Source of the DNA: Proteromonas lacertae | Taxonomy: Eukaryota | Direction: 5' to 3' | NCBI GenBank assembly: GCA_002245135.1 | Contig: NGBS01000599.1 | Span: 1 to 64,000 of the forward strand | Length of the DNA: 64,000 bases | Shown here: positions 1 to 26,205 of the stretch, piece after piece | Numbering within the stretch: the stretch's first letter is position 1 | Layout: each line of letters opens with the position of its first letter | Translations under genes and position numbers: made by a program | Notes under the pieces: generated by a model | What the model was told of the DNA's origin: nothing | The model's database searches: none | What the model saw: only the letters and a program-made list of their open reading frames with translations

Positions 1-3000
1 GTTTCAACTGAGAAAGTAAACTATCAGTATCAGTCATTACATAGTGTTAGCTTATCAGAACCATATTTTTTTCCAATACATCATACCAATATTTTGCATT
101 TTGAGTTTAGATAGTGCTAAGATAACCATTCCAATTTGTATAGGTTTTATTAATTTCATATAGCTTCTTATGAAAATGTGCAATTCTTAAATCACCTTCA
201 ATAATGATAAAGTCTTTAAACCATGGATCACTTGCAGCATCAATCATTTGATCTTCATTAGTAATTAAAGATATGTTACTTCTCTTTTTCAACACGTTCC
301 ATAAATTTACCGTATAAACTATTCATTAATTTCTTTATATAGTCTGGCAGTAGTATTTTGATTGTTTTCTTTAGCTTGGACTCTTTTTTGTACCATAGTA
401 TTAATATATTACCCATATATAGACTTCAGTAAATCTCATTATTCTATACACTTTACCCACTTTATAGCCATGTTCAACTGCAAACTTCAAATTTTGGTAG
501 TGTATTATATATTTTTCTTTAGGATACAAATCAGTTATTAATTTCTCAGTAGCATGGTAAGTACTTCTTTCTTTATGTATAATACCAAGATTTTCAGCTC
601 TTTCAGTTTGTATATCAGATAACCATTCTTTAGGTATTTTCTTCCTTTCAGGTAACAATGGGTATTCTTTAAACTTGTCTTGTAGCTTTATAGGTAACTC
701 GATATCAACTTCCAATATATAACCAAAATCATTATTCTCCAATCTATCTTGATCCATTTCTTCATAATATGGCAAATCAAGTATACTTTCTAATGTAATA
801 GAATTTGGATCAATAAATTCAAAGTCATCTAAAGGCATTTTACAAGAAGCCATAACTGAAGGGTATAAAGAATTATAGTCTTGATATAATAAGAATTTAC
901 TAGGTAAAGTTTCATCATAATTTTTCATAAATTTGTTATTTGCATCTTCCTTACGCTTACCAATATATGATAATCCTCCGTATAAACCATTCAATATAAA
1001 ATCATAGTATTCAGGTTCACAAAGTAATTTAAGTTCCACATCAGATACATGCAAGAATAAATTGAGTGATAAACTGGGTAATGAAATATACCAACAAGGA
1101 TCTATGTGAAAAGTATCAAATATATTATCTCTAAAATCATTAAATATAGACTGAAGAATATAAACATCAATTTTCAAGTAAAATAAATTATATTCACGTA
1201 TATTATCAAATCCAAATATTTGATTTACTTGCATAGCAAAATCAAATTCTTCAGGTTTAATAGTTTCATTATCATTCAATTTAGACTTAAAATTATCTAT
1301 AGTAAGATCTTTGAAATTTTCTTCAAAAGCTTCAAGAGATGTCATATGTTCATATGGAAAATAATTCTTTTGAAGTAAGTATTTTTCAATAATTTCATCA
1401 TCTAGGTAATGTCCATTATATTCTTTAAAATTCTCATAAATTGTTTTGAATTTTTCTTTCTTAGTATTATTTAATTCTGCTGTAATTTTTAGATCACTAG
1501 TTAAATTTGCTAGAGAACCTGCTAAGAATAAATAACTGTCAATAAACACCAAATTCTTGTATTGTATACACTTATAGTTTTCATCTGTATTAGGTATAAT
1601 ATTGAGTGGACTATTAGTTATTGCAGCAAATTTGGCTAATTCCTTTACTATGAAATGCTGGTCATATTTCATAGCATTATGACCTATTATTAGTACTTTT
1701 AATTTTTTTATATCAATATTTAGATTCTCATTACTACCAATTGAAGCAATATAATGACCTGTGAAATGATCATGGTGAAGTACCTTTACATGATCAATAG
1801 AATTAAATGGTTTACCGCAAAAGTCACATTTTTTCTTTTTATTATGTATATCCTTAGCTGTTTCATCTCCATCAAAAGGTTTAGGATTATTTAGTCTGTA
1901 ATTGTAAACTGTACATATTTGATCATATATATTTAATATATCCAATACAAAATCATTTTCAATATTATGATCCTCATTTTGTTTATATTTAATCACAGTA
2001 AAACTGTTTATATCTGGTATTTTATTATCTACATAGATACAGTAAGAATAAAGCTTATGCCTAGCCATAATAGATTGCTCAGTTTTTGATAATTCTATTC
2101 TAGTATCATTATCATCTATTTCTTCCATAGATTTATATCTACTTAAATTCAATTCATTATCATATGGTACAAAATAAGTTTCAGTATCATAATACATAAA
2201 AACTGGTAATGTTTGGAGGTGAGTCCAATGTCTAAATTTTTAGTATGATTTTTCTTTATCATCTTTATCAGGGAATAATCTTAATACATTATCTTTATCT
2301 TGACAGTCATATATTTGGTGATTATTAAAGGATCCATCATCGTAAGTATAGAAGAGACAGTATGGACACACAAATATATTATTAGTATTATTCTTTTTAT
2401 CTATCATTTTTCTAAATAGAGCAGGTAAGGTATTTATTGTTACATAGTGTGAATTTCCATCTTCATTTTTTATTAGCAATAGATTTACAACACTATATTT
2501 TTTAGATTTCTTTTGTTTAGATAAATGAATGGGTAAGAATATTTCTTCTTTATCTTTAGCAATATCAATATAAAATATATTCACATTTAGTCGATTCTTT
2601 GTTTCAAACTTATCAATAGATTCATTATCTGTAGCATCAACAGGGAATGTTAACATACTCCAATCATGTTTCTTTTCATACATTTTGTATTTTTCAGGTT
2701 TATCTTTATTACATTGTAGATTATTAGAATATAATGAACATAGTACACTCCACTTAAAACATTCATTATCTTCATTTATTACATTTGTCAAACATCTAAG
2801 ACCTTGAAGTTTAGCAGGTAAAACAATAAAACTACTTCCACGTATCACTTTAAATTTTGTTACATATAATTCAATAGTATTTACTCTAGCAAAAGTAAGA
2901 CCACTTTGAGGATGATTTGAATCATCTTCTGATATTTGTGTAAATATATTCTCCAGTATAGTTTGTATTTCACCTACAGTAGACATTTTTGTTATTTCAC

Positions 3001-3574
3001 ATAGTCTACTACGACTAAATATAGAAACTTCATCATCACTGTCAGTAGACTCATCAGGTATATAAATTGAACGTACAATAAAGAAGAATTTAATCATATT
3101 CATAGTATCAGCTAGTTCATGTAATATATCTTTGATATCACTATTATTAACAAAATCATGATAACATTGTTGTGGTGTACTGTAATTTCTATTGTTATAA
3201 TTGAAAACCCATTTCCTGGTAACACCTTGAGATGATTTATCAACTTCTCTAGCATCACGTATTCTATCATTAAATCTTTGATTTTGGTTAGGTTTTGGTA
3301 GGGAAGAAGGCATTAATCCACCAAAGAATGTATCACTGATTATTGGTATATCATTATTGTATCTTTTTTTATTTTGAATAGCATCTGTACTAAATAATGG
3401 CGCTAATCTTCGTTTTGGAGCTTCTTCTGGTGGTGCAGGTGGAGGTGGTGGTGGTTCATCTGTATGTTTATGTTTATGATGATGGTGATGCTTATGTTTA
3501 TGATGTTTATTTATATTAAAAGTTTGTTCTATAAGCTTAAAAAATGCTTTTAAAAGCTTTTTATGTTTGCTCAT
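1..3574 (-). pseudogene. Protein-primed family B DNA polymerase (pPolB-A), disrupted
   Basis: ORFs 2240-3604 and 401-2197 are one frame split by a single TAA (EKSY*KFRHW...YYDTE). Motifs: vOTU-like DNECF/SHY, ExoI YYDTE, EndoVII-like HHDHFTG, ExoII GHNAMKYD, Pol A DYNSLYPS; Pol B KLMNSLYGK and Pol C MTDTDS follow further frameshifts at 1-420. Confidence 0.92.
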
Positions 3575-3620
3575 TATATAGACAGAATTCGCGAAATAAA
3601 TCAAAAATGGAAATATGAAA

Positions 3621-3649
3621 TTTGATTGGTCGGATGATTTGATTGGTCG
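3621..3649. promoter_or_regulatory. Tandem inverted CCAAT boxes in the divergent promoter
   Basis: TTTGATTGGTCG repeated at 3621-3632 and 3638-3649, in the ~160-bp gap between pPolB-A and ORF 3734. Confidence 0.5.
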
Positions 3650-3733
3650 ACTTTAAAAATAAAAAGAAATTTTCATTTTCATTTTTCTCAAGATTTTTAG
3701 TCATTTTTTATTTTCATCTCTCCCTTATATAAA

Positions 3734-4510
3734 ATGAGTAACGAAACACCCTATGAAGCTACAGATGTAGAATTCAGTGATTACTACAAAAATCCAAAGT
3801 TATGTAACAAGTGGATTATTAAAGGAATTGTTGAGAGTATTACAGTTAAGCCTACTAAAACTAGTCAATATGTATTGACTACTTTTGTTCATGATTTGGA
3901 TCATAAAGTTGTAATTAATAATGGAAGAGATTTTGAAACATATTCAGCTGATGAAGTAAAATATGTATTAAAACAAATTTATGATAGAAACGAGAATGAC
4001 TTTATAGAAAAAATCATTCGTGGATATTTGATTAGTGTAGGATGTAGAGAACCTCAACATGGTATTAAATACTTCCACAATTTCAATTCTATTATGATAT
4101 GGGATAATAGTAACTATAGAGTTCCATCTGATGTTGATGTTGGTAGTAAAATTGCTGTAAGTGTTGTTGATAATCAAATCTCTATTAAGAGTAATGGTAC
4201 TCAAAACTTTGTTAATCATAGAGTTTGTAGTGATATTGTTGGTTATGATGAAAATCCTGATTTAGCTACAACTATTAGAAGAAGTAATGAGAAGAAAATT
4301 AAGAAAGAACAAGCTAATCAAAACAAATTTGTTTCACCTCCCAGAATTAAGAGAACTAAGATAGAAGATAGTGATTTAATTAGTACTCGTAGACCATTCC
4401 CTGCTAAGAAAGTAATTAGTAATGGTTTTATTAGTGCTGCTAAAGTTATTAACTTTGGTATTGGTGGTAACGCTTTAAGTGATAAGGATTTGGGAGAGGT
4501 AGAAGAATGA
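3734..4510 (+). CDS. Element A hypothetical protein (beta-rich, possibly OB-fold/ssDNA-binding)
   Basis: Intact 258-aa ORF between pPolB and integrase; beta-strand-like pattern with a basic C-terminal tail (SPPRIKR). The fold is a guess. Confidence 0.6.
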   Translation: MSNETPYEATDVEFSDYYKNPKLCNKWIIKGIVESITVKPTKTSQYVLTTFVHDLDHKVVINNGRDFETYSADEVKYVLKQIYDRNENDFIEKIIRGYLISVGCREPQHGIKYFHNFNSIMIWDNSNYRVPSDVDVGSKIAVSVVDNQISIKSNGTQNFVNHRVCSDIVGYDENPDLATTIRRSNEKKIKKEQANQNKFVSPPRIKRTKIEDSDLISTRRPFPAKKVISNGFISAAKVINFGIGGNALSDKDLGEVEE

Positions 4511-4582: not shown

Positions 4583-5702
4583 ATGTCACTACAAGATAAA
4601 ATAAATGAGTTATACAAAATATATGGTTATTTAAACAAACGAGACTTTATTAATTTCTCTGTAAATGAACTTGAGAATAACTTTAAAAAATCTGACATTA
4701 AAAAAGCTAGTAGTGAACTTGTAGAGTCTAAACCAGATTATCAAATCACTGCAACTAAAAGGAATAGAATTAAATATGAAATTGAAAAGTTACCTGGGTC
4801 ATATCAAATAGATTTGGTGTTTTTCAACAATACAAAAGTTCCATTTTTGTTAATTATAGAAGTTGTTAGTCGTAAGTGCTGGATATATTATGTTAAATCT
4901 AAATCAGAAAATGATGTGTATCCAGTGTTTGAAAAATGGTTTTATCAGGGTATGCAATTAACAAAAGTCTGGTATTATCTTTGGTAAGAAATTTTTAGAT
5001 TTGTTTAACAAAAATCATATAAGATTTATACTTAAAGAACGTAATGAACATAATATAATAAAAATATTGGATAGATGTGTGAGAACTATTAAAGATATGT
5101 TTTAAAGAAAAATTAATACATTGTCTGATGAAGAATTTGATAAAATTAACAATATTGAATCATTGTGTAATATAGTATATACTGTTGTAGATGATTACAA
5201 TGCAAAACCACATTCTGCACTCAATAATTTAACTCCAAATGAAGTATTCAATGATTTTGAAGTCCAAGATAGATTGTATAAAGAATCCCATGCTAGAAAC
5301 TTAAAGAAGCGTAAAAGTGATACTCATTTTAAAGCTGATGATTATGTAAGAATAAAAGAACGTAGAGATAACAAGCTTCAAAAAACTACTTATTATACTG
5401 ATAAAGTATACCAAATACACATAGTTGAACCATTTTCATATTCTGTTAAGAACTTGGATGGAACAATACCTAGAGAATTCAATCCTAGAGATATAGGCTC
5501 ATATAGATTCAAATCACATGAAATTAAAAGAGTACCTGTTAATAGTATTACAACAAATGGTATGTTTAGATTAAGACAAATTCATAGCATAAATAATGAA
5601 GCACAACCTATAGAACCAGATATTCAACCAGTACCAGAAGGCAGAAAAAGTAGATATGGTAGAGTATATAAGAAAAATTCGCTATTTAATGATTTCGTAT
5701 AA
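4583..5702 (+). pseudogene. rve-family integrase A, disrupted
   Basis: YQIDLVFF...IIEVVSRK; frameshift/deletion near 4960; ILDRCVRTIK; in-frame TAA at 5103-5105; YNAKPHSALNNLTPNEV; SH3-like FKADDYVRI. Confidence 0.88.
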
Positions 5703-5849
5703 TTTTTTATGCTTTTATTTATGTTATTTTTTACATATTAAACAAACACCAATTCTCATTAAAGTAATGAATTCAAAGTGTTTTTCAAGTATATGAATTA
5801 AAGCATAAACCAGACAAATTTAAAGTATATATTAATACTTATAAGTTCT

Positions 5850-6105
5850 TCATCATCTTCTCAAACTCTTCAGCTTTTTTTCTTTTCTCTTCTTCAATTC
5901 TCTTCTTAAACTTTTCTTCCATTTTCTTTTCTAATTCATCGTTTTCTTTTTTCATCTTTTCTTCCATTTGTCTCTTTTGTTCTAATACCCATTTCTTTCT
6001 TACCTCTTCTTGTTTTCTTTTTCTCTCTGCTTCTTCTTGTAATTTTCTAACTCTTTCTTCTTCTTGTTGTTTTTTCTTTTTTTCTTCATCTTCTTGTTTA
6101 TTATA
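5850..6105 (-). pseudogene. K/E/R-rich coiled-coil C-terminal gene fragment
   Basis: Reverse strand reads KQEDEEKKKKQQEEERVRKLQEEAERKRKQEEVRKKW...; no start codon; cut off at the boundary of the GC-rich block. Confidence 0.5.
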
Positions 6106-6107
6106 AT

Positions 6108-6455
6108 TTGATTATAATAATCCAAATAATAGCGTCTCTGAAGAAGTCAAGTATCGAAGAAGAAGGAGGAATAAGCAAGAGATTGATTGTCTTTAAGAAC
6201 AAGAGCAAGAAGAAGAAGAGTCGTAAGAACAAGTGCAAGTTGATGTACCTAGACGATATTGACTCTGCCGATGATGAGATCATCGTAAGAAGTAGCAGTA
6301 TCATGGATCCTAAGAACTTAGATGATATGATTAACAGCATGGGAATGACTCCATTCTCATCACCTTCAAAGTCAACAACTAAGACCACAGTCAAAGGAGT
6401 TGGAGGTGCTAGTTATAAGACTTCACAGGAGCCGATAGTCCCGATCTATAATTAG
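6108..6455 (+). CDS. Small basic hypothetical protein (possibly 5'-truncated)
   Basis: Open 115-aa frame with Lys-rich patch KNKSKKKKSRK and module-type codon usage. Confidence 0.35.
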   Translation: MIIIIQIIASLKKSSIEEEGGISKRLIVFKNKSKKKKSRKNKCKLMYLDDIDSADDEIIVRSSSIMDPKNLDDMINSMGMTPFSSPSKSTTKTTVKGVGGASYKTSQEPIVPIYN

Positions 6456-6502
6456 CTTAGTTGTTCTTTTCAAATTGATTATCTAAGTAAAGTTCCCGTA
6501 TA

Positions 6503-7800
6503 ATGAAACGGAGATCACCTAGCAAAGATAATCCTTCAACTAATTAGAGAAGAGCAGTGACTTACTTACAAAGGAAGCTTCAGCAAGAGTTCAAAAACCA
6601 GCTAGCAACAATCAATAACGAGGAAGACATCTTGAAGCTCTTTGACTCTTATCTCTGAGAAGATAAGACTGAAGAAAAAGAAGTAGTCAAGGACAGAGAA
6701 GTCATTAGCAAGGAAGATAATGAACCAGAAGAAGATCTATCCAACTCTTACTACTTGAAGAACAACGCATTACTCAAGGACTACCTCCAGGAAGTGAGAT
6801 CCCGAGATCCTAACAACCCCTACAACATACCTTATCAGCAGATAGATGATTACAATAAGTACGTGAACTTAGCAACACCGGAGAGGAGATTGGAGCAGCA
6901 ATAAGAGGTTGTTGGAGTTAGTCATCCGTTAAGGAAGTACTTCCGAAGGTGATCCAACTGGATAAATACGCCGACGTCTAGGACATAAGGAAGAAGGTGG
7001 AAGAGCTTAAACAAGTGAACTACGGAGCTTACAATCAATACATATACAAGTAGTAGAAGCACTTACTCCATACTCACTAGAGATACTGGAAGACTCCTAA
7101 TAAGTAAATTCAATGGAATAGTAGGTAAAGCAGTCAGAACCATCATGATACAGCTACAGAAGGTGCCTTACAAGATAGGTATAGTCTTCCATCCAGTATT
7201 TGTTGGGATGACGATTAACCTCCTGATCCCTTGCAGTACTTACAGGACATGTATGGTGTTATCAAGAGAAGTGTACCCGTTTGAGAATCAACTAGTTCTA
7301 TTCCGATCAGCCCCAGGAAGTGCCCGCGATGATTACAAGAGGATTGCAAGAATATTGGTTCAGCAACTAAGAGTCCAGATGTGCCTTCTTCCCGTGGAGC
7401 AAAGCTAACCTGTGATGGTAATCCCTTACAATGAGATGGCGATGAAGCAAGGATTGTTAGCTATGATCAGAGAAGTAATCCCTTACTATTCCAGGAGCTA
7501 AAGGAGAAGTATCAAGAGGTTGTCAGCTACGTGATAGAAGCATCAGATAGCATAAGCTTAGAGATAGGAGGACAGAACAACTTAAACCTCGTAGCAGGCA
7601 ATGGAGTTTATGGAAATGCAATCCAAGACAATCAGAGATGATAAGATTAGCAATTAGTCGATACGCAGTTCCCGTACTTAGATCAGCTGAAGTTCTTGAA
7701 GCAGTGTACCTTGCATCTCAAGGTTCATCATCTCCAGCGAGTACAGCACTACCGATGATGATGAAGAGTTCATAGAAGAGTGTTCCGAGGAAGTAAGAAG
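6503..7800 (+). pseudogene. Decayed hypothetical gene(s) of the GC-rich module
   Basis: ATG 6503 MKRRSPSKD... continues protein-like through in-frame TAG/TGA/TAA stops; ORF 7145-7408 is a fragment. Confidence 0.45.
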
Positions 7801-7859
7801 CCAAGTGAAAGATGAACTCAATCTATTGATATTCCAAGAATATCAGAACTTTACCAGGC

Positions 7860-8222
7860 AGTTCATAATTAACACGATCAGAAGGATAAGTGGTGCTGCT
7901 TACTTTACATTCCAAGGACTAACAAGATCTCAACGATGTTCCCAGCAAGGATGGTGACTCTTATTACTACGATCCTCTCGGGCATGTGCCTCCTGAGGAA
8001 GACTGGTTAATAGAACAACTACAACAGCTCAAGAGATTTACTGCAAGTGGAAGAGTCCCGTACTTACTTAAGATCAACAGGATAGCGCATAGCCTGGACT
8101 TGTCACAGGCAACTTACAAGAAGCTGATTATCACCAGGTTCTTATCAGTCTACTTTCTATACAACATACTCAGTCAAGAGAAGTCCTTTAAGGAAATCCT
8201 GTGGGTATGCTCGATTAAGTAA
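7860..8222 (+). pseudogene. Adenain-like (Polinton maturation) cysteine protease remnant
   Basis: Across frameshifts: FIINT..., KWCCLLYI (KW where HW is expected), then YYYDPLGHVPPEE, matching the Polinton protease YFDSxGxxPP motif; lies directly upstream of the capsid gene. Confidence 0.45.
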
Positions 8223-8320
8223 GAGACAACAGAATGAACTCAACAAGAAGCCTTATCGTAAAGTGTAAGTAAGCTATTGTGTTATTTCCCAAAGTGATTT
8301 ATTACCTCCTGAATATCGCA

Positions 8321-9447
8321 ATGAGCAAGATCCATACTGGTCCATCCTCCATCATCTCCCAGGAACATGACTTTATCGATGAAGTGCAACCATTAGTAGC
8401 TCTCGATCAACTCATCCCTTTAGTTGCAAGTCAAGGACAACGAGTAGAGATTCCTAAGGCTGCTCTTAGCGATGAAGTCACCTTAGAGATTGTCAAGGAT
8501 AACTTTATAAACTTCACTAAGTCCCACTTACAATATCGACTACATGTAGAAGCAGCTGGTCTCAAGAAAGTTACTTTAGCTGATACCTTCAACCTTGAAA
8601 GTATTACGAGATCTTCCGAGGTATCATGACTAAGATTATGCGTAAGGCAAGTAAGATGGCTCATCACGGGATGTACTACGATGGAGTCTGGATTGATAAG
8701 AAAGGTAAGGTCATTGAAAATGGAATGAAGTTCACAGGAGGTGCTAATGATGATTATGACTACCAACAAACGATAAAAGACAATGCCTTCGACTTGCTTA
8801 TCAAGATCCCTTGCAAGGAGTTGTTTAACACCATCCTCAGTCATCCTACTGATGTCTACTTCGGGGAGAAGGTTTACATCTCTATACGATGGCAAGACAA
8901 AGGTAAGATGGTGGACATCGTTGATGCTACTCTAAAGGATGAGACTATGGTAAGTCTCGAGGATATCTACTTCAAGGCTAACTACAACAAGGACATTGCT
9001 TGCAGCGAGAACACCAAGAAGTACTGCCTTACAAATCCTGTGGACTTCAACGATGTCCATGTTGTTAGAACTCATGTAAGTAACAGCTCCAGCTACTTCA
9101 GCTACTCCTTCAATATCAATAGTTACATCGGATCTTACGTAAAGTTCATCCTTTACAGATGCTATGACAAGGAAGGTAATGTGGTGCCTGTTGCGATGAC
9201 CTCTAAGTTCAAGTGGTGGATCAATGACTTCAACTACAACCCTGACTTCCAAAACATGGAGACTTATGATAGTTACGAGGATATGAAGAGCTTCATCAAG
9301 GGTAGCTACTACGACCAGGCAATTGACCTACCCTTCAATGAGAAGTTCCTTGAGATCCTTAACTTTACCACCTCGGACTTAACCAACATCGAGCACATCT
9401 TGATACGAAGTAAACGTTTAAAGAAAGTCACCTTGATAGGAACATGA
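8321..9447 (+). pseudogene. Putative double-jelly-roll major capsid protein, one frameshift near 8627
   Basis: EVTLEIVKDNFINFTKSHLQYRLHV resembles the Polinton/PLV MCP N-terminal motif; beta-rich; two overlapping ORFs total about 375 aa; viral context. Confidence 0.65.
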
Positions 9448-11672
9448 CCGACAACTACCTTGAGTGAATCACCACTAAAGCTACTTTTAGGGTCGGGTAT
9501 GTTCAAGATAACATCCCAGGTTGTGTACTCAACATGAAGGATGGGATTGCCAGAGTTATCATCTTGAGTAAGTATACTATGGATCTCATTGATCTTCGTA
9601 AGCTGGTCGTGGGAGGTAAAGTCATTGATCTGTGATAAGTGTAAGTACTGCAAGTGATGGAGATCGTTGATATTGCTTTCAAGGCCAGGGAACTTCTCTT
9701 GGATGGTATTGATCCAATTGTAAGTCTTTGTGGTATAGGCAAAGAGATCATTGAACCAGAAGAAGACTGAGAACTTATTCTCAGCATCACCATCAACCAG
9801 TCTCCTGACTTTACCTTGGATCTCACCGACTGAGGTTGTAAGTGATGCTAAGCTAGTACTGATAGAAGTAAGATCGGAAGAGGATGCATTGGAGTTGTTA
9901 TCATTACTACCACCTGAAGATGCTAGAGATGCCTTGATAGACTCTAAGGAAGTATTTACTTTGAACAGCTCCTGGAAGACTGATTGTTGTTGTCCTTGAA
10001 CTAGTGGCTCACCAAGATGCGATAAGAGTAGTGCCTGGTTCTCAAAGAGTGTAGTGTTGACCTTAGGCTTAGGAGATCCGATAAGGTGGTTGATGGCTTC
10101 TAAGTTCTTGAAGACTGTGTTGTAATTGCTACTGCTGCTGGAGCTGCTTCCTAGAAGATCAGTGATTGAAGAGAGATCTACAATGGATGGAATGGAGGAT
10201 CCTCCTGAGGAACCTCCCGAAGATGCATTACCATTGCCAGTAGCTATCCACTTACCGATCATCTTTACATCCTCGTAGATGTCCATCAAGTAGGTGAACA
10301 TGCTTAGCTGTTCCTTATACTTCTCGGGACATGTTCCTATAACTCCATTCAAGGCAACGTGGGCTGTCACCAGATTGACAATGTGGCTACTATAGATAGC
10401 TTGCTGGGACTTCAACTCAATCTCCTTCTTAGCATTCTCAGTCGGTACATTGGGGATGAAGTAGTTAGTGATCAGGTCAACTTTATCACTGAGAGTAGGA
10501 GAAAACGCTACAGGTCGCGCAATGTTGGAAGAGTTGCTTCTGGTTGATATTCAGGACCTGGGTAAGATCCTTTACTGAGATGACTTCATCGTAGAGAGTA
10601 TTGGTACTGTTATCATCGTCGGGGTTGATATCAATTCCTTGCTTCTCAAATTCTTTAGCGATGGCCTGGCAGTAGCTATTGAGACTTTGAAGATCTCCAT
10701 TGAGTTGAACTAAAGCAGCGTTGATATTGTTCTGACTGTAAGTGGTAAGTGAATTCACTTGAGATTGAAGACCGATAGTGAGCTGGTAAAGCTTATCGAT
10801 ATATTCAAAGAGATTGTTAGCTACTGGTGCTGACGGAGTTGAAGAAGAAGGAGAGTCATCATCGGGAGTGTTGATACTATCTGGGATCAAGGAGGAGCTT
10901 AACTTTTCAAGGAGGTCGTAAATGGAGGAAGGTCTATTGAGATCAGTAACTTCCATGGAGGATGGATCATATCGGTGCTTACCAAGGAAGTCCATTGCAG
11001 AGTAGTGATTCTCGGTCATAGCAATCATCGTCTTAGTAAGGGTATCCTCATGATTCTTAAGGACTGCACTAACCTCTCCGATGATACCTATGACTTCATT
11101 GACTTTGTTGAGAGTAGTCTTGGTGCTTATCAAGTAGTTGCTTCACGTTCTCACTCATCGGCTTTATCAGATCATCCATGGCCGACACGGTAGCTGATAT
11201 CTCCTCCAACACCTTGTTGCTATCGGAGGTCTCTTGTTTAGTGGTATTGGTAAAGGACTCAATAGTCTTCTCCAGCTCCTTGATAGTGTTATTGATCACG
11301 GTCGTGTTGGAATTGCTATCACTGTTGGTATTATGAAGTTGTCTTTCAAGGTCTTGGATCTTCTCAAGGAGCTCTTCATGCTGCTCATCGTTCAAGGACA
11401 CAGGAATGCTTTGTAAGGCTAACTTCATCCTGCTAGAGATCTCCTCATAGTTGGTATTGCAAATGAAGGAGGAGTTGCTTAGCATCCTTTGAAAGGTATC
11501 GTTGATCACTCCGATATCGACATTAACAAAGAGTTGTCTTTGAAGGACATCTCGTAGCTCCACAAGAGTGTGGTTGATGTGATCGAATTGATGATTCATC
11601 AGCTCCTTGACAGTTGTAGTCGGTTCAAAGAAGGAGGAGCTGCAGTTCTCATGAAGAGTGTTGTCTTGACTC
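9309..11672 (-). pseudogene. Long coiled-coil/Ser-linker protein (fibre-like?), two frameshifts
   Basis: ORFs 11096-, 10486-11133 and 9309-10415 join through frameshifts near 11130 and 10515 (bridge PVAFSPTLSDKVDL...KEIELKSQQ); heptad segments separated by Ser/Gly/Asn linkers. Confidence 0.6.
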
Positions 11673-12201: not shown

Positions 12202-12595
12202 CGACTTAGTTATTTTATCATCATCTATTCTTTATTTATTTCTTCATATCTTTTCATATTAGTTACTTATAAACTGCTCAAATATATAACATGATCTATT
12301 ATAAACTGCTTATACACTGCTTAATGATGCCTGATTTGGGAATGTAAGTATTTAATTTACATTGAAGTGAGAATATATTGGATGATTATGCTTTTTTTCA
12401 GCTGGCATTTAAAATGCAAATGATTAGTTTGAATAAAGGCTTGTATCAAATTTCATAATAAAATTAAAAAGAACTATATTTTGTCTGTTATAGATTTGTA
12501 TAAGCAAATTTATGATTATATTATTAAATCTATATTATAATAAATTGTTCATTACATGAATTGATATTAAAGAACAGGACAAATCGTAAAAGGAC

Positions 12596-12738: not shown

Positions 12739-12779
12739 TATTTTATTTTTGCATTTTCTAGAATATTCTTATTTCATAT

Positions 12780-13568: not shown

Positions 13569-13794
13569 ATATTTGGTATTAATTAATTAGAAATACTACT
13601 AATAGAAATTGTTCTTCTAATTCAAATCTGATCCAAAGAATATAATATAATTCAAGTAAAAGAAAGAAATATAAAACAATAATATAAAATAATAAATATA
13701 AATCGTAAAAGAATTGATATATAACTTTTAGAAATTTATAAAAGAATAAAAATAATAATAAAAATATATAAAAAATTAATTTTTAATTTTCTAG

Positions 13795-16700: not shown

Positions 16701-18712
16701 CTTTTATCCATAAATGGTGTTTATCTAAAGGATATTTTCCATATGAATATGTGAACTCATTATCTAAATATTTCAATACTTTTGAACTACCTCCTAAAGA
16801 AACATTCTATTCAAAGTTAAAAGATGATAATACTGTAACAGATGTTGAATATGCTAGTTGTCAGGCTTTATGGAAAGTTATTAGATGTGATAACTTAATG
16901 GAATACAATTTATTTTATCTCAGATTAGATGTTCTTACATTAACATGCGTATTTGAACATTTTAGAGATGTTATATGGAATAATTTTACTTTGGATCCAT
17001 TATGGCATTGTAGTTCACCTGGTTTATCTTGGAGTATATTCCTTAAAAATTGTGATGTAAAAATTGATTTAATAAGTGACTCTGATATTTATGACTTTAT
17101 ACATTCTGGATTAATAGGTGGGATTTCTATGGTTGGTAGTATGAGATATGCAGAGTCTTGGAATCATTATCAACCTCAATGGCAAGAGAAAAATAAAAAG
17201 GAAGTACAGGATCCAGATAATCAAGCATATATTATGTATATGGATTATAATTCTTTATATCCAAGTACTATGGCTAGTATGAAGTTACCATATAGTGAAT
17301 TTGAATGGATTGAACCAACTACTGAAAATGTTAAGAAAATATTATCATTACATTACTATGAAGAACAAAGAGAAAAATATTACAATACAGAATGGATTAA
17401 TAAAAATATGTATGGATATATTCTAGAAGTAGATATTTCTCCTCCTAGTAATAGTAATGAAAGAAAAAAATTTGCTGAATATCCTTTGTTACCAGAAAGA
17501 AAAATAGTTGACTATGATAATTTATCTGAAATACAAAAGAAATGGGCAGAATCTTTAGGATTAGTTTCAGAAGCTAAAAATAATATTGATAAACCATATA
17601 AAGTTAAAAAGTTAAAGTCAAATGTTCCTAAAATAGTATGTGATTTAACAACAAAATACAACTATGTTGTTCACTATCAATATTTGAAATTTGCATGTGA
17701 AATGGGTTATGTTATACATCATATTCATAAAATTATCAGATTTAAAGAGTCTAATTATGCACATAACTTTGTAATGATGAATCATAACTTAAGAAGACAA
17801 GCTAAATTAGAAGGAAGGGATGCTGATGCTGATACTTTTAAGCTTATTCTAAATAGTGCTTATAAAAAGACTTGTGAAAATACTGAGAATAGATGTACTT
17901 CCAAATTGGTTAATAATGAAGAAGACTTTTTAAAGTGTACTTCCAATCCATTTTATAGAAGTTTTATTGCTATAGATAATAGTAACTTACGTATATGCAA
18001 ATTTCAAAAATATAAATGCACTATTGATAAACCATTTTATATTGGTATGAGTATATTATGTGAATCTAAAAGGTTAATGGCTCAATTCTGGTATGGACAT
18101 TTATATAGGAAATATGGGACTAGCTTAAGATTATTGATGAGTGATACTGATAGTTTCATATTTATGGTTAAAACTAGAGATTTCTATATGGATATTATGA
18201 ACGATCCACATTTTGAAAAGAAAGTTGATACTGGTAATCTTAATAAACAATACTTAATAACTAAAGGTATACACTATTCAAATGTTAATCAAAGTTCAGA
18301 ACTTAACTTATTAAAAATAGAAGAAAATAAGAATGGTTTATACTCTATTACTAGATTTGCAGGATTAAAACCTAAAATGTATGCCTATGAAAAAGTAAGA
18401 GTAGACGATGATATACATACTGTTACACATGATAGTAGAGCTAAAGGAGTTACAACTGGATATAGAATTAAAACTTGTGATTTTGACTTTTATAGAAAAA
18501 TATTAACAGATGCTGAAGATGAAAAGTCTTACAGAGTTGATAAAATCAAACAATATAGTTTCAGAAGTATTAACCAAACTTTATATACTATGGAACAAAA
18601 TAAGTTGGCTTTCAGCATATTTGATTCTAAAAGGTATTATTTAGATGTTTATCATAGTATTCCTTTTAATGATTATTATCCACCTATTATTAATAACACT
18701 ACTAATGTTTGA
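13795..18712 (+). pseudogene. Protein-primed family B DNA polymerase (pPolB-B), disrupted
   Basis: Five ORFs join via TAG 15007, a frameshift near 15410, TAA 16085 and TAA 16451. Motifs: NDQLCF/KHY, YWDTE, HHDHFSG..CNNCN, AHNSKNYD, DYNSLYPS, KLILNSAYKK (G lost), SDTDS, LKPKMYA, AKGV. Confidence 0.93.
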
Positions 18713-18806: not shown

Positions 18807-20168
18807 ATGTATTTCGGATGGGATCCTGCTAAAGCATTTTTTAATACTATGAATGATATAGGTAACTTAATGGAAGAAAGACAACAGCCTCCTCCTAAAC
18901 CTGACTATTCTTTACAATATTATATGAATAATGGTAGAGATGCTATTAAACGTTTTGCACCTCCTGAAAAATATAACCCTTATCCTAATCCTCAATATTC
19001 TCAATATCAAAATTGTTTACAACAACTATATAATAAATATCATTATTTAAGTGATAGAGATTTTATTAAAATGGTAATGAATCCTGTTAATAAAAATGAA
19101 ACTCCACCACCTATAGATGCTATAAAAGAATTTTTAGCTAGACAACCTGTTCGTCAGATTGTAGACTTTCACTATAAACGTGACCATCCATTTGCAAGTA
19201 TTAAAAAGCCTGGATGGTTCCAGATGGATATAGTTTTCTTTTTACCAGAACTTAAACATTTATAAATCATAGAAACTAATTCTCGTAAAGTGTGTGTTAT
19301 TCCAATACAAAGTAAAGGAGGTGATGAAAATTTAAACGCTTGTAAATCGTGGTATTATAAAGAAGATGCAGATTCTTATTTAAATGGAAATTATCAACCT
19401 AATATAGTAGCTAAAAGAAGAGTTATTAGTATTTTGAGTGATTATGAAAATGGTTTTGAAACAATAAAAGAATTTTGTAATAAAGAAGGTATAAATACTT
19501 ATTAAAAGAATCCTTCAGAACATAGAATAATGAGTGTATTAGATAGAAGTGTTTCTATTGTTAAAAAACTATTGTATAAACGTCTTATAGATATAAATTT
19601 TGATGCTCCTTTTCGTTCTTTTAATGTTAATAATAATCATAGAGAATCTATGTATAATCAATATATGTCTGAATGGATAAAAACATTTAATAGAGAAGTA
19701 TATGCAGTAGTACAAGACTATAATAATAAACCTCATCCTGCATAAAAAGGATATACTCCAAATGAAGTATATCATTCTGAAATATTACAAAAGAAAATAT
19801 TAGTAGATAGTATAAATAAAAATGTAGATAATGAATTTAAATTAGAAGATAAACAAAAATTTAAAATAGGTGATATTGCTAGATTTAAAGAAAGAAGAAG
19901 ACAATTAGATAAAATAACTACTTGGAGTGATGATGTTTATATGATTATAAATAAGTTTAGATTTTCTTATCAAATAGGTGATACTAATGGTAACTTTGTA
20001 CCTACTGTTAGTAATCAGAGGTTTAAGCATTATGAATTAGAATTAGTAGAAAGAGCGCAAGATAGAAAAGCTTATTTTAGAGCGTATCAAGCAAACAGAA
20101 GATTTTTTAATCAACATTTTAGAAAAATATTACCAAGGCCAGCAACAATTCAAAAGGGAATAGTATAA
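18807..20168 (+). pseudogene. rve-family integrase B, three in-frame TAA stops
   Basis: One frame throughout: FQMDIVFF, IIETNSRK, ILSDYENGF, VLDRSVSIVK, YNNKPHPA*KGYTPNEV, FKIGDIARF; stops at 19263, 19503 and 19743. Confidence 0.9.
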
Positions 20169-20201: not shown

Positions 20202-20873
20202 TTAAAGTTCTGATATGTCAATAACTGCTCTGCTATTGACAGGAACTTTTGATAAATTATTATTATCTTCTGGAGGAGGAGGAGGAGGTTCTTCTTGTTT
20301 AATTTTGGGCTTTGGAGTTTCTTTTTTTTCTTTAATGATATGGTGTTCTTTTGAAACTCTTCTTCTTTTGTTATATTTTCTATCTTCTTCATAATCATCA
20401 CTATCATTATCACTACTACTACTACTACTACTATCACTACTAGAACTATCATTTTCTATATCAACATCTTCATACAATAAGTTTTCTATTTTATCTGGAT
20501 TCACATATGAAGGAATTACTGGATATTTGAATGTAGACCACCTATATATATTAATTTCTGTTTTCTTTAGAAAATACCACTTTTCATTTTTTGATTTAGC
20601 ATCTTCTGAAAATTTTTGAAAATCACCTGTAAATTGAATATGTAATGTGTTGAATTTGGCAAATATTTTTATATTACTATTAACATATTTTATTTCATCA
20701 CAATTTGTTACAGCTATTGTTACTAAATTATCCTCAAAAAATTGATTCTGAAATAGGATATCATTGTATAAATTCATAATATAAGTTGTTGGTAAATATT
20801 TCATATAATCATATAAATCAAATTGAAAATCATTAATTAATACATTATTTTTTGAATTGAATTTAATTTGCAC
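20202..20873 (-). CDS. Element B hypothetical protein with acidic/basic/Pro-rich tail
   Basis: 223-aa open frame with poly-Ser/Asp, KRRR and poly-Pro; start uncertain. Confidence 0.5.
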   Translation of the reverse strand: MQIKFNSKNNVLINDFQFDLYDYMKYLPTTYIMNLYNDILFQNQFFEDNLVTIAVTNCDEIKYVNSNIKIFAKFNTLHIQFTGDFQKFSEDAKSKNEKWYFLKKTEINIYRWSTFKYPVIPSYVNPDKIENLLYEDVDIENDSSSSDSSSSSSSDNDSDDYEEDRKYNKRRRVSKEHHIIKEKKETPKPKIKQEEPPPPPPEDNNNLSKVPVNSRAVIDISEL

Positions 20874-20905
20874 TTTAGAAGTAGTAAAAATTATTTTGTA
20901 TTTAT

Positions 20906-21720
20906 TTATAAAATTTCTAATGGATAAAAAATAGTATTATCATCCAAAATTTTATTAAGAGGAATAGTATTTTTGCAGAATAATGAATTAATTTTACTTC
21001 GTGTATTTGTTTTTCGGTTTTTTGCATCCATATACTTATCTTTCAAATAAATAAAAATATCTTGATATGCAACAAAGGATAAACTATAATATTCTGGATT
21101 GTCATCACATATATAAAATTTTAGTATATTTATTTTATTTTTGTAATCACAACTATATTTAATAGTTGTCCATATATAATTAATATCATTTTTGAGATTA
21201 TTATTATGTTCCTTAAAATATAATTTGATAGGATTGTGGAATAAACAAAATTTGAAATATCTTTCATCCATAATATAAAAAGGAATTTCACAAGACCATG
21301 TATAAAAATGTTGACCTCTATTCATATTAGTAATTATTTTTAAACACATAAAAGTGTTGAATAAGAAAATCCAATTTCGATACCCAGTCCAACTGTGGGT
21401 ATCTTCATATGCAATATAATAATTGCCTTCCATGTATTTTTTGACACAGGAATAATCAACACCAATATTTCAGACATTATTATTATAATATATAAAGATA
21501 TCTGATTCTGTAATTAAAAAATTATGTAAGTGTTTGCTATGGACAAATTCCTCCCAACAATATACACCTTGAAATTGACCATTAAAATTTTTATATCTAA
21601 TTTTTATAATGTCTTCTATATCAAAATTTGAGAGTGCATCTTCAGACAATTTGTTTAATATTACTTTTCGACGAGATATTATTCTCCGTCTTTTTCTTTT
21701 ATTATATCTACCTAATCCAT
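20906..21720 (-). pseudogene. Degenerate adenain-like protease homologue
   Basis: From ATG 21720: LSNFDIEDIIK...FQGVYCW resembles the Polinton protease N-terminus; GYRNWIFL sits where GTHW is expected; stops and a frameshift lie upstream of ORF 20906-21433. Confidence 0.35.
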
Positions 21721-21795
21721 TTTTATATATATTATAAAGTTGATTAACATTTGCATAAGAAGTGCCAAAATTAGTTAATTCAACAGGTAAATTAA

Positions 21796-23460
21796 TTATT
21801 CAGCAGGTATTGCAAATATACTATTAGAAGTTGCAGGATTTGATTTTAAGAAGCTAAATAATCCTCCAGCATCTAATAAACCAAATATAGAACCTGCTGC
21901 AGTTACTAAGACACCTATAAAACCTATCCATCCTATAAATCCTTTAACATCCCAAGGTGAAGTAGGATAGTTAGGAAGCCAATTTTTACTATCCCAGAAT
22001 TTTTCAGGCTTTCCAAAACTAGCAAATTTAGCAAACTGAGGAAGTGCAGCTAAGAAAAATTGTATATATGGATGATTTCCTAATAAAAATGAACTTGCAA
22101 AGTTCCACAAAAATCCAAGTGGTAGCTTTGAATTTCTTATAGAATCAGGCAAATAGGATTCTATAGAACTATATTCAGCATTATATAATTGTTCTAATGG
22201 TGGTAACCTTCCACCAGATAAATTTTGTATTATTCTATAATAATCAGGTAAAAAATGCTAAAAAACATAAAATAATCCTCTCATTCCATAATAACCTTTC
22301 TAATATCCCCACCAAGCTATAGCTGTCATTATTACAGCATGTATTTGTTTCATTACATATTCTATTTCTACTCTATTTGGAGTAACTCCACCATATAAAT
22401 AATTCTTCATTTCATAATAAAACATAGGAAATATCATTAAAACATTATCAACACATTTTATTAAATTCCACAACATCACCATGTTGTATATTATCCATAG
22501 CTTTTTTAAATTGACTACCTTCATAACCTTTCCACTTACTGCAAGCATCTTTTAATATTCTCATACCTATATCATATTTTTCAGCATCTGAAGCTCCATT
22601 CCATCCTTTAAATGTTTCACTATTTCTTAATTTTGCTATATTTTTTGACCTCCTTTGATTTTCATCTATAACAGTTGATTTATTTATATTTATAGGATTA
22701 GGATTTTTAATAGCTTTAAATTTATCCATTGTTTTAGGATCAGCGTGAAGCATATAATAAAGATAACCTCTTTCTTCTATATCTTCTGGTTTAAGTAATC
22801 TAGGAGCTAATTGATTAGCTAAAGCTTGATTATCATTAAATTTTTTAAAGTCAGGAGGATATTCTTTTGCTGCATCTTCCATATTTTTTAAAGCTGAAAA
22901 TAATTCTTGTTTTAATAATTCTTGTTCTAATTGATTTATATTTCTATATCTAAATTGAATTTTATCTCCTAATATGAATATTTCATAAGGCTTTTCTCTA
23001 GCTGCTTGATAAAATGTTTGATTAGTAGGAACTCCCATAGCATTTTTTAATTGTTCTGTTGTCATATTTACTATTTCAGGATTTAATTTAACTAAAGGAT
23101 TATTTATAGTATTTACTCCATTATCATAAGGATGAAAGTATTCATCAGAATTCACTTCTTTTACAATTGAATTTAATTTGACAGGTAAAACTATATTAGC
23201 CCTAGGATTTCTAGGATCTATATATTTTGTATTATATTTACCTAAAAATGGAAGGGAAGTAAAATCATTATTCAAAAATGGTTGATAATATTCTTCATCA
23301 AGACGAGGTATCTTTTGATATACCTTCATTATATAATTTTTCTAAGTTCCAGTTATAATCCCAACCAACTTGCTGGCCATTTTTAAATAATCTACCAACT
23401 CGCAAAGAATTATTATTATTAACAGTTGTATCTGTTGTATTAGTTGCACCTCCTAATTTT
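21796..23460 (-). pseudogene. Disrupted gene with C-terminal hydrophobic/membrane segments
   Basis: ORFs 22448-23329, 22300-22548 and 21796-22152 join via a frameshift and two in-frame TAGs; hydrophobic segment GFIGWIGFIGVLVTAAGSIFGLL. Confidence 0.5.
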
Positions 23461-23523
23461 TTATTATTATTATTATTTAATAATCAACTATGACAGCGAT
23501 GCCTCCGTGGTATCTTATTTTTA

Positions 23524-24999
23524 CTATTTAACTCTGCTATGATATTTTTGAATATTTCTTCTACCTGTTCCTGATTTTTTACCATTCCACCAATTTATTA
23601 TAGCATTTACAGGATTTAAACTAAGATTTGAAGGAACTCTATTTATATCAATAGCTAAATTAGGATCATATTTATGTTCTTCTATTAAGTCTTTCCAGTG
23701 ATTATTTATCCAAAAGTTTTCTAAATTAGGATATTTAGTTTTCAACTTAACTAAGTCAACATTTCCATGTCTAAACCACTTTTGAACTTCTTCAGTTACT
23801 CCTGCCAAGTTATCAGGTAACCCAGGATTATGAATTGGTGGAGGTACATAAGCTGGATTAGGAAGCTGCGGCGACAATAAACTACTATTTTTCTTGTAAC
23901 CATATACAGTAAAATTAGGATTAGGACAAGTTGCAGTTGGGTTAGGACATTGAGCATTATTTGCTTAGTATTCATTATAAGGTGTATAAGCTGGATCAGG
24001 ACATTTATCCCAACCAAACCATCATGCAAATTTATTACTTATTTTATTTAATGCCCATTTAAAAGGTGTTAATAACCATGAAATAGTAATAAATACTGTA
24101 TTTAAAAGATTTGGAGCAGAGTCTCCTTTAAACCGATTGACAAAATAAGTCCAAAACTCTCTTTGATATGACCATAATATTGCACTTAAACCTCCAGCCC
24201 ATTTAAGTTTAGTTTCATCAAAACCAAACATTTTATTCATTAACCAATGCTTGTTCTATACTACCTCCCATTAAAGCTAACATTAATACTCCACAACCCC
24301 ACCATAACCACTCTGCTGCAGTTGTTATATGATGATCTTTAAACCATTCAATAACTTGATTACTAAACCAGTGTTTTTGTTCTGTATTCATACTCTCTAT
24401 TTTATTTGTTAAATTTTGACTATCTTGTTGAGAAAGATTAAATTTTCTTTGCCATTCTTGTGCTTCTTCATTATATTGACCATTTGTATTATTCCATCGT
24501 TGGCTGTTAACATAAGAACCTGTATTATAAGCAGCAGGATTTTGTAAGTTATGAACATAATTAGTACCATTAACCCACTGTCCTTGATCGTTTTGATAAA
24601 ACATATTTTGAGTATTTGGAATAAAAGGGTTTTGATATTGTGTAGTCATATTAGCTGGATCTCCATAATTACTATATGGTGTAATAAATTGCCCAATATT
24701 TTTATAATATCTTCCAAATTGGTCTGTTATTTGAGACATATATAATTTATATTTATCTTCATCAGACATATAATTATTTAATAGAGTAGAATCATATAGT
24801 TCTAATTGTGTATTAGCAGAATCAGCTAAATCTTTATCTACATTGACTGTAGGATTAGCTAAATTTGATAAGTCTGACTTTATTTTTTTATTACTAGATA
24901 ATTTTCCTCACTATTTATTTCATCCTCATACTGTATCTTTCTCTTTTTATTATTATGTTGTTTATGTTTACGTGTTCTAACTTGTTTAATAACAGGCAT
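23524..24999 (-). pseudogene. Disrupted gene with basic N-terminus, N/Q-rich region and Trp-rich hydrophobic segments
   Basis: ATG 24999 MPVIKQVRTRKHK; ORFs 24233-24769, 24022-24240 and 23524-23877 link by frameshift and in-frame TGA/TAA. Confidence 0.5.
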
Positions 25000-25061
25000 T
25001 ATATAATATATAAATAGAAATATTATCAAAAAGAAGAATATAAAGATAAAGAATATTATTA

Positions 25062-25289
25062 TTAAGCTTCATTTAATAAATTTTCAAATATAATAATAAC
25101 TACATCTTTTCTGTTAACTGAAGCGCTAGTTCCACCTACACCTGGAATTTTATTTATTTTAACACTAGCATCAGCTATACCTTTTACTAATTTTTCATAA
25201 TCTGGTCTATTGCTGTTTGTGTACAACATTGAGCCAAATAAATGTTGGTCGTCCAATTCTCTTTGAGTTGAAGCAATAAGATTAGCCAT
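25062..25289 (-). CDS. Short ORF, possibly a truncated capsid N-terminus
   Basis: MANLIAST...RPDY...KINKIPGVGGTS...VIIIFEN is loosely like MCP N-termini. Confidence 0.25.
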   Translation of the reverse strand: MANLIASTQRELDDQHLFGSMLYTNSNRPDYEKLVKGIADASVKINKIPGVGGTSASVNRKDVVIIIFENLLNEA

Positions 25290-25609
25290 ATTATTCCTGT
25301 ATATATTAGAAAATCTCAACAAATACAAAATCAACAACAATAAGTACCGCCACCTCCACTTCAAACTCCATCAACTCAAAATCAAAATCAATCACAAATG
25401 GATCAAAAAGCAGAAGAAGCATACAACGAATTAATGGCTGATTTACCTCCACAAATGAAAGATTTATTAAACAATATAAATCCATCAACATTAGAACAGG
25501 CTATATTTGAATTAAATAGAATAGCTGATGAAGCTCTTAAACAACTGCATAAATATCTGTTATACTTTTAATGATAACTATTCTTTGTTTTTGTCTGTAA
25601 TAATATAAA

Positions 25610-26205
25610 ATGAGTTCTATGCACATATTTAACATAGTAGACGATGATTTGAGTGATAATCCAGACCATAACTAAAAAAAATATAACTGCTAAGAAAAGA
25701 AAGCGTAATGCTGAACAGGATTATGAGAATATGATGGATTACTTCTATGGAGAAGCTGAAGGTTGTGGAGGTTCAGACGATGAGGATTCATACGATTCTG
25801 AAGATGATGAAAATGCATCAGATGTCGATTCAGATGGTAACTTAATAGGTTTCATAACTAACGATAACGATGATGATGAGTCATATGAGCCAACAAAATC
25901 TGAAGAGGAGGAGATGGAATACGCATCTAGCGATGATGATAAGCAAGATAAAAATAAAGATGATATAATAATAATAAAAGGTAAAAGAAAAAATATAACA
26001 AATGCTTTATTAAACTCATTAGCTCCATTAAATTTATCTGAAGCAGAAAGAATTAACCAGAAGGCAGAAGATATATTAAAGAAGTTAAGTCAAAGTAGAT
26101 CAATTATGTGAAAATGCAAGTACTCCATATGGCATTATTATAAGAAGTTTAAATCAAACAGTGAAAGCATTATTTGAAATATCTTCAGAAAATAGAAGTA
26201 ATTTT
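25610..26205 (+). pseudogene. Acidic nuclear protein N-terminus, interrupted by hAT
   Basis: NLS-like KKRKR, YFYGEAE..SDDED...DSDGNLIGFITND; frameshifts near 25675 and 26090; the shifted frame runs into the hAT end. Confidence 0.5.

What the first reader, a model, noticed from the sequence alone, without database searches (positions are those of the whole stretch)
1..26205. Cluster of three compositionally distinct endogenous Polinton-like viral segments in a Blastocystis-like genome
Seen: two clearly divergent pPolB + rve-integrase elements with different gene order and head-to-head polymerases, flanking a GC-rich capsid/protease module. Known: pPolB, rve integrase, DJR capsid and adenain define Polintons/Mavericks. 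Inference: repeated integration at one hotspot by at least two, probably three, DNA virus lineages that may be undescribed in this host. Many ORFs have no recognisable family, and I saw no A32 packaging ATPase or TIR pair.
Basis: partly seen in the sequence, partly recalled or inferred. Interest (0 to 1): 0.85.

Follow-up and report, generated by a model that had tools for sequence, protein, structure and literature searches.

The report
Decayed Polinton-like virus nest in protist
This is a broken-down pile of DNA from likely three virus-like jumping elements in an AT-rich single-celled eukaryote, likely a Blastocystis relative: two distant polymerase-integrase sets and a GC-richer capsid block of an unnamed family, an arrangement of a known kind with new members.

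Summary
The cluster is real but partly overstated. Two broken protein-primed polymerases (1-3574 minus, cut by the window edge; 13795-18712 plus) point away from each other. They are about 34% identical, and each has a likely DDE integrase (31-33% identical to each other). Composition gives two classes, not three: both polymerase segments match the host (26% GC), and only 6131-11672 differs (42% GC, third-position GC 0.4-0.6). That block carries a broken capsid gene. It belongs to an unnamed family seen only in Logan assemblies; a model of a 34%-identical relative has a double jelly-roll fold (Z 23.9, at most 13% identity to any structural hit). The protease claim is unconfirmed; I found no ATPase, penton or TIR pair. 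Both edges of the GC block cut AT-rich genes, the right edge in frame. Most likely several Polinton-like viruses integrated in tandem or nested, then were trimmed by deletions; a capsid-module-swapped recombinant virus is the main rival. A Blastocystis MELD virus (Starrett 2021) and tandem, mosaic polisuvirus clusters (Barth 2026) are already published. Host identity and contiguity could not be tested. Verdict: new members of a known kind.

The parts
1..3574 (-). pPolB-A, broken (in-frame stop at 2240-2242, frameshifts from about 400 down); about 170 C-terminal residues lie beyond the window edge
   Evidence: PF03175 E 2e-18; 68% identical to P0004 over 353 columns
3734..4510 (+). Open 258-aa ORF of element A, no family
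4583..5702 (+). Likely DDE/rve-type integrase A, broken (frameshift near 4979, stop at 5103)
   Evidence: rve E 0.016, rve_3 0.006; IS30 2e-4; PHROG transposase 3e-4; breaks
5838..6108 (-). K/E-rich coding fragment without a start, cut at the left GC junction
   Evidence: codon-model path; AT-type codon use
6131..11672 (.). GC-rich virion-gene block G (GC 0.418); no polymerase, integrase or terminal repeat
   Evidence: change points and GC3; codon model; repeats
6131..8300 (+). String of short or broken ORFs; 7745-8219 resembles an adenain-like protease by recalled motifs only
   Evidence: six frames; no support
8324..9447 (+). Double jelly-roll major capsid gene of an unnamed family, in two frames; about 16 family columns absent at the break near 8600, and the last 55 profile positions unmatched
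   Evidence: 15 phmmer hits, 11 at E<=1e-10; alignment; profile 5-79 and 121-410 of 465; fold of relative P0137
9309..11142 (-). Two overlapping ORFs (413 and 218 aa stop to stop), S/N-rich with weak coiled-coil-type hits; possibly fibre-like (inferred)
11096..11944 (-). Chimeric ORF: about 90 AT-type codons fused in frame to about 190 GC-type codons across the right junction
   Evidence: running GC3 0.07-0.27 before 11674 and 0.33-0.80 after
11673..13790 (.). AT-rich stretch with short ORFs (12231-12016 minus, 12777-13001 plus, 13568-13098 minus) and a non-coding region with CG-rich motifs; cannot be assigned to A or B
   Evidence: log-odds within 6 units
13795..18712 (+). pPolB-B, broken (three stops, one frameshift); proline-rich N-terminus and long acidic insert
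   Evidence: PF03175 E 6e-21, PF02945 9e-4; 58% identical to P0001, 44% to P0002; breaks
18807..20168 (+). Likely DDE/rve-type integrase B, three in-frame stops
   Evidence: 33% identical to INT-A, E 1e-19; PHROG transposase E 0.02
20202..25370 (-). Block of broken genes of element B, no family; some hydrophobic stretches; no capsid gene of the G family
20906..21799 (-). Candidate adenain-like gene; only a 27-residue N-terminal match
   Evidence: 12 of 27 identical to the L004 protease-like ORF; score 57 against a maximum of 44 in 20 shuffles, best of 24 comparisons
25725..26111 (+). Acidic ORF, viral or host unresolved
26206..27279 (-). hAT transposon remnant that bounds the cluster on the right
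   Evidence: PF05699 E 2e-6, above cut-off; imperfect inverted ends

Best explanation
The region holds two broken polymerase genes with likely integrase partners and a broken capsid-gene block of different base composition, likely left by three Polinton-like DNA viruses that integrated in tandem or inside one another and were then trimmed by deletions. SHOWN: the genes, their breaks, the two composition classes, the sharp junctions, the capsid family and the fold of its relative. INFERRED from family knowledge: such viruses copy a linear genome with a protein-primed polymerase, package it in a double jelly-roll capsid and enter host chromosomes through a DDE integrase acting on the genome ends. 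INFERRED for this locus: A and B are AT-rich sister lineages long adapted to this host's composition. G came from a higher-GC virus whose own polymerase, integrase and ends were lost. Stops, frameshifts, small deletions and a hAT insertion then inactivated everything. The locus is predicted to make no particles.
For: Separate polymerase branches inside one clade (support 1.0, stem 0.68), each with its own nearest relative (70 sequences; 6 of 74 hits dropped by the length filter on the aligned region). G codon use is unlike A, B and host: all 5 G gene pieces favour the G model by 30-154 log units. Local deletions are demonstrably common: the capsid gene lacks internal and C-terminal family columns. 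In-frame stops number 2 in 5,016 nt (A, excluding bases 1-403, which hold further breaks) and 6 in 6,273 nt (B), against 0 in 16,182 nt of long host ORFs (those ORFs were picked for being open). Both junctions cut AT-rich minus-strand coding sequence. Tandem integration followed by internal deletion is the route proposed in Barth 2026 section 13.
Against: No TIR or target-site duplication marks any element end, so the number and order of insertions are inferred. G supplies just the kind of genes A lacks, at the place they would stand, and the right junction is in frame, which fits a recombinant virus as well. Bellas 2023 (passages) warns that stops in protist viral insertions are often assembly artefacts. 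The right 3.3 kb of G has no in-frame stop. No reads were available.
Confidence: 0.5

Rival explanations
1. Only two elements integrated. The left one (A plus G plus part of 11673-12700) was already a recombinant virus that had swapped its own AT-rich virion module for one from a higher-GC virus by two crossovers, and it replicated before integrating.
For: G has no replication genes or ends, and A shows no capsid gene in the window. The right junction is an open in-frame fusion; only 255 of 4,942 minus-strand positions in G give 190 open codons. The joined length would be about 13 kb, like the 13,355-nt contig that carries relative P0002 (completeness unknown). Exchange of replication and morphogenetic modules is common in this group (Barth 2026 section 11).
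Against: If both sides are same-strand coding, an in-frame join has a 1 in 3 chance. The left junction leaves a start-less gene fragment, which a working virus would not need. 11673-13790 cannot be assigned to A. No second copy could be sought.
Confidence: 0.3
2. The cluster, or the G block alone, is a chimeric assembly: reads from a co-sequenced higher-GC virus, or from several copies, were joined, and many breaks are consensus errors.
For: Sharp composition steps; position at the window start; published cases of artefactual stops in protist viral insertions.
Against: No long repeat lies at either junction. One junction is an in-frame fusion. The capsid break removes many family columns, not one base. 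Neighbouring host ORFs of 626-2,276 codons are open.
Confidence: 0.12
3. Element B was never a virus but a capsid-less, transpoviron-like polymerase-integrase replicon that inserted beside a viral relic.
For: No capsid gene of the G family and no Walker A motif in 13795-26205. Such elements are described next to polisuviruses.
Against: B has about 5 kb of unassigned genes, one with an adenain-like start. A second, unrelated capsid family would be missed, and none of these proteins was folded. This reading is compatible with the best explanation and only changes what B was.
Confidence: 0.3

Closest known systems
Blastocystis MELD virus (Starrett et al. 2021, PMC8502044, section 3.4 and Fig. 5 legend read)
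   Same: Adintovirus-like PolB plus integrase, with virion proteins not recognisable by primary sequence; long PolB branch away from animal clades; likely the same host group.
   Different: Here the copies are broken, clustered and in a 26% GC genome, whereas human isolates are 39-55% GC (PMC12129017 Table 1). The published sequence could not be obtained, so identity at family level is untested.
Polintons/Mavericks (Polintoviricetes; animal adintoviruses)
   Same: pPolB with the PF02945-like zinc region; nearest named hits are insect and Hydractinia proteins at 24-39% identity; likely DDE integrase.
   Different: The window polymerases form a separate clade. The capsid family profile does not recognise the capsid-like ORFs of the Maverick-like loci L004/L005 (best E 4.9). 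No ATPase, penton or TIR was found.
Tandem and multi-replicase polisuvirus clusters, transpovirons (Barth et al. 2026, 10.64898/2026.10.13.758929, abstract and sections 11 and 13 read)
   Same: Several replicases side by side, degraded endogenous copies, and reassociation of replication and virion modules.
   Different: Here both replicases are pPolB of one clade, and the module boundary is visible as a GC step through an open reading frame.
Endogenous PLVs and virophages of protists (Bellas et al. 2023, PMC10120064, passages read)
   Same: 15-30 kb insertions with capsid, pPolB and rve genes, often with GC unlike the host; only 47% of high-quality loci had TIRs.
   Different: 'Blastocystis' does not occur in that paper's main text. 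Whether this capsid family is among its 121 clusters was not testable.

Membership tests
Polinton-like viruses in the wide sense (Polisuviricotina, MELD) | Double jelly-roll major capsid protein | tested here: met
   Window gene is in the family. Model of relative P0137: pLDDT 83.7, pTM 0.84; Foldseek E 6e-13 to a PBCV-1 capsid chain; Z 23.9, rmsd 4.4, 356 aligned. The window protein folded alone failed (pLDDT 31.8).
Polinton-like viruses in the wide sense (Polisuviricotina, MELD) | A32-type packaging ATPase | tested here: inconclusive
   No Walker A motif in 1-28400, no Pfam hit in read-through frames, no match to the L004 ATPase. The region is broken and element A runs off the window.
Polinton-like viruses in the wide sense (Polisuviricotina, MELD) | Minor capsid protein (penton) | tested here: inconclusive
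   No match to the L004 penton-like ORF (label recalled). The same test also missed the known capsid gene, so power is low.
Polinton/Maverick in the strict sense | Protein-primed DNA polymerase B | tested here: met
   PF03175 above cut-off twice; polymerase motifs align with relatives.
Polinton/Maverick in the strict sense | Retroviral-like DDE integrase | tested here: inconclusive
   Four weak hits agree on DDE enzymes and the two genes are homologous, but none passes a curated cut-off.
Polinton/Maverick in the strict sense | Maverick-Polinton clade capsid protein | tested here: not met
   The family profile does not detect the capsid-like ORFs of L004/L005; at most 13% identity to any of the 50 viral structure rows shown, adintovirus and MELD rows included. 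One comparator type only.
Polinton/Maverick in the strict sense | Adenain-like cysteine protease | tested here: inconclusive
   None supported in G (34 against shuffle mean 34). A 27-residue match lies in B. Pfam also misses the L004 comparator.
Polinton/Maverick in the strict sense | Terminal inverted repeats and target-site duplication | tested here: inconclusive
   None in the window, but the left end lies outside it and the right end abuts a hAT insertion.
Blastocystis MELD virus (Starrett 2021) | Sequence relationship to the deposited genome | not testable with these tools
   No mention in the one supplementary file held as text; no capsid match among phage records or IMG/VR.
Blastocystis MELD virus (Starrett 2021) | Blastocystis host | tested here: inconclusive
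   Host part is 25.6% GC with AT-rich GT-AG introns of variable length, read by eye. This fits tortoise Blastocystis (21-23%) or Proteromonas (27%) in PMC12129017. 0 of 5 host proteins were found by exact look-up.
Transpoviron-like element (for B) | pPolB plus DDE enzyme with no morphogenetic genes | tested here: inconclusive
   No capsid gene of the G family, but about 5 kb of unassigned genes were not folded.

The most novel reading that the evidence does not exclude
A capsid-module swap caught in the act. An AT-rich Polinton-like virus of a gut protist acquired its whole virion module, built on a so far unnamed double jelly-roll capsid family, from a virus adapted to a much higher-GC host. 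It spliced the module in through an open reading frame and replicated as a hybrid before integrating. This would imply that these viruses move between deeply diverged Blastocystis-like hosts and co-infect them.
Probability: 0.25. Interest if true: 0.65.

Novelty: new member of a known kind. Interest (0 to 1): 0.42.

Why it matters
Blastocystis-like protists are the commonest gut eukaryotes, and their DNA viruses are barely described: 5 papers in the library hold both 'Blastocystis' and 'Polinton'. This locus yields two usable markers. One is a capsid family with no Pfam, PHROG or PDB sequence match; the other is a polymerase clade whose other members are four unnamed Logan proteins. Either could be used to mine gut data and to tie free viral contigs to a host. 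If the GC block proves a pre-integration swap, it gives base-level junctions for the module exchange that is so far inferred mostly from trees. If it is post-integration debris, it is an ordinary viral graveyard.

Tried and rejected
No whole genome is held, so other copies, TIRs and empty sites could not be sought. Sequencing runs: none was listed; no reads were laid. IMG/VR scans with the capsid, both polymerase types and two alignments gave no relative; the GTDB scan gave none. The metagenome scan gave 7 loci of 326 candidates, all distant (29-42% in the best segment), and none shared capsid-block genes. Word-indexed protein searches missed the capsid family; only the full phmmer found it. 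One of its 15 hits, P0148, is a 2,662-aa repeat protein, and I dropped it as spurious. The ESM Atlas gave no usable hit for the capsid fragment and only weak viral hypothetical hits for 20909-21469. PDB sequence searches gave nothing. A shared 5-mer at the two GC junctions was rejected as a target-site duplication: several such matches are expected within the junction intervals (hand estimate). Recoded stop codons were rejected: frameshifts occur too, and genes here end in ordinary stops. Shared upstream motifs did not assign 11673-13790 to A or B. Rfam: 0 matches. Earlier scan findings: nothing for this genome or these sequences; the 8 notes listed concern Polintons of other genomes. Literature searches; none listed a description of endogenous Polinton clusters in an AT-rich Blastocystis relative. 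Subscription papers and bioRxiv supplements were not visible, and the one PMC8502044 supplement is held at about 4.0 million characters, possibly cut.
Full report
WHAT IS THERE. Bases 1-26205 hold viral genes. From about 29 kb on, the window holds intron-containing host genes: glycosyltransferases, an NhaC-family antiporter, LRR, WD40/EF-hand and a 2,275-aa PA14 protein. No whole genome was available.

POLYMERASES AND INTEGRASES. pPolB-A runs from 3574 leftwards off the window; pPolB-B runs 13795-18712. Both pass the PF03175 cut-off. They share about 34% identity in the polymerase core and 25-28% upstream. A search with the B core gave 74 proteins at E<=1e-10 among 6,222 candidates. The four best are unnamed Logan proteins; P0004 is 68% identical to A and P0001 58% to B. 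In a FastTree tree of 70 sequences (6 hits dropped by a length filter on the aligned region, 579 columns, midpoint root), A, B and these four form one clade (support 1.0, stem 0.68), apart from the named insect and Hydractinia proteins. A pairs with P0004 and B with P0001, at an A-B distance of 1.58. The integrase-like genes are homologous to each other (33%, E 1e-19) and have only weak DDE-family hits. Order differs: divergent with an intervening ORF in A, tandem in B.

COMPOSITION. There are two classes. A (0.266), B (0.265) and host (0.256) are alike; 6131-11672 is 0.418 GC, with change points resolved to about 40-50 nt. All 5 G gene pieces prefer a G codon model by 30-154 log units. A and B differ slightly from each other, and the four ORFs in 11673-13790 fit either. 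'Three compositionally distinct segments' is therefore an overstatement.

THE CAPSID. The 282-aa ORF at 8599-9447 had no match in Pfam, PHROGs, PDB, the word-indexed search or the Atlas. phmmer over 1.84 billion representatives gave 15 hits, 11 at E<=1e-10 and 33-44% identity. Nine of the 10 looked up are Logan-only and unnamed; the tenth is the spurious P0148. A profile of 11 relatives matches 8354-8575 and 8602-9396 and nothing else in the window, so one gene is split and its C-terminal part is unmatched. AlphaFold2 on relative P0137 (34% identical to the window fragment; 23-row alignment) gave pLDDT 83.7. The model matches double jelly-roll capsid chains of PBCV-1, iridovirus, mavirus, Sputnik and PRD1 (Foldseek E 6e-13 at best; 6-12% identity; Z 23.9). 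In BFVD the best rows include NCLDV, adintovirus and 'MELD virus sp.' proteins at no more than 13% identity. The fold is shown for the relative and inferred for the window gene.

OTHER VIRION GENES. The protease claimed for G resembles adenain only by motifs I recall; no test supported it. These tests are weak: Pfam missed the comparator, and the alignment test missed the capsid control. The one above-background signal of 24 comparisons was a 27-residue adenain-like start in B at 21572-21649. No ATPase or penton was found.

JUNCTIONS AND ENDS. At the right edge of G, one ORF (11944 to 11096, minus) switches from GC3 0.07-0.27 to 0.33-0.80 at codon 91 without a break. At the left edge, a start-less K/E-rich minus-strand fragment begins at 6108. 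G thus sits inside AT-rich viral coding DNA and has no ends, polymerase or integrase of its own. No TIR pair exists in the window. The right boundary is a hAT remnant starting at 26206.

DECAY OR ERROR. Stops number 2 in 5,016 nt of A (bases 1-403 excluded; they hold more breaks), 6 in 6,273 nt of B, 0 in 3,294 nt of G's longer ORFs and 0 in 16,182 nt of long host ORFs. That is roughly 1-2% neutral change in A and B, with wide intervals. The host figure is biased, because those ORFs were chosen for being open. A multi-codon loss in the capsid gene argues for real deletions. Bellas 2023 (passages) shows such breaks can be artefacts, and no run was listed to check.

HOW IT LIKELY AROSE. From family knowledge, these elements replicate linear genomes by protein priming and integrate through the DDE enzyme. 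I favour tandem or nested integration of three viruses followed by deletion (0.5) over a hybrid A+G virus formed before integration (0.3) and over misassembly (0.12). The first two are stages of the process that Barth 2026 proposes (sections 11 and 13); they differ in whether the hybrid ever replicated. The in-frame join is weak evidence: 255 of 4,942 positions would give it at random, or 1 in 3 given same-strand coding on both sides.

WHAT IS KNOWN. Starrett 2021 (section 3.4 read) describes a Blastocystis MELD virus with this gene logic, and a 2022 preprint uses it in trees (one passage). Lind 2025 (PMC12129017; sections 5 and 6 and passages) gives the GC ranges that make an AT-rich Blastocystis relative plausible; 'Polinton' did not bring it up. 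A 2026 PLV framework places MELDs among PLVs (one passage). Passages of three more papers added nothing. The published Blastocystis virus sequence could not be compared.

VERDICT. A real, likely decayed cluster of Polinton-like viral DNA. The kind of element, the clustering and the likely host group are known. The unnamed capsid family, the polymerase clade and the sharp in-frame module junction are the new items. Interest 0.42.

Noticed in passing
window 32434-33067 and 28397-29206: Two foldback elements: 275-nt arms, 96% complementary, 43 nt apart; and 115-nt arms, 96%, 580 nt apart. A 14-nt motif at the left end of the first recurs just right of the second, so they may be related small transposons.
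   Followed up: no
window 34553-39271: Four glycan-modifying genes in a row, each one long open ORF: GT15 mannosyltransferase-like, GT10 fucosyltransferase, galactosyltransferase and LicD-like.
   Followed up: no
window 39470-41347 (minus): Unbroken 626-aa NhaC-family antiporter of bacterial type (PF03553 E 3e-47). Its best NCBIfam hit is Tet(35) at 205 bits against a cut-off of 750, so this is family-level similarity only. Possible gene transfer from bacteria.
   Followed up: partly
window 47594-54424 (minus): 2,275-aa likely surface protein with PA14 and HRM-like domains, a threonine-rich stretch and a C-terminal hydrophobic segment.
   Followed up: no
window 15960-16460: Acidic insert of about 170 codons, with two stops, inside the exonuclease region of pPolB-B; relative P0002 has a much shorter acidic loop there.
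   Followed up: partly
window 12250-12770 and 3575-3733: Both divergent intergenic regions carry CG-rich motifs in CpG-poor DNA. There is also a 12-nt triple repeat at 12267-12321 and an 11-nt motif repeated at 12581 and 13700 upstream of plus-strand genes. Possible promoters or a decayed element end; chance is not excluded.
   Followed up: partly
window 21799-22452 and 23527-24907 (minus): Broken genes of element B with Trp/Gly-rich hydrophobic stretches (peak hydropathy 2.0 and 1.5); no family found.
   Followed up: partly
window 59379-63539 (minus): 1,386-aa acidic host ORF with dispersed internal repeats.
   Followed up: no
L004:1279-12788: A degraded Maverick-like locus with protease-, penton-, ATPase- and capsid-like ORFs (labels recalled), used only as a comparator.
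   Followed up: partly
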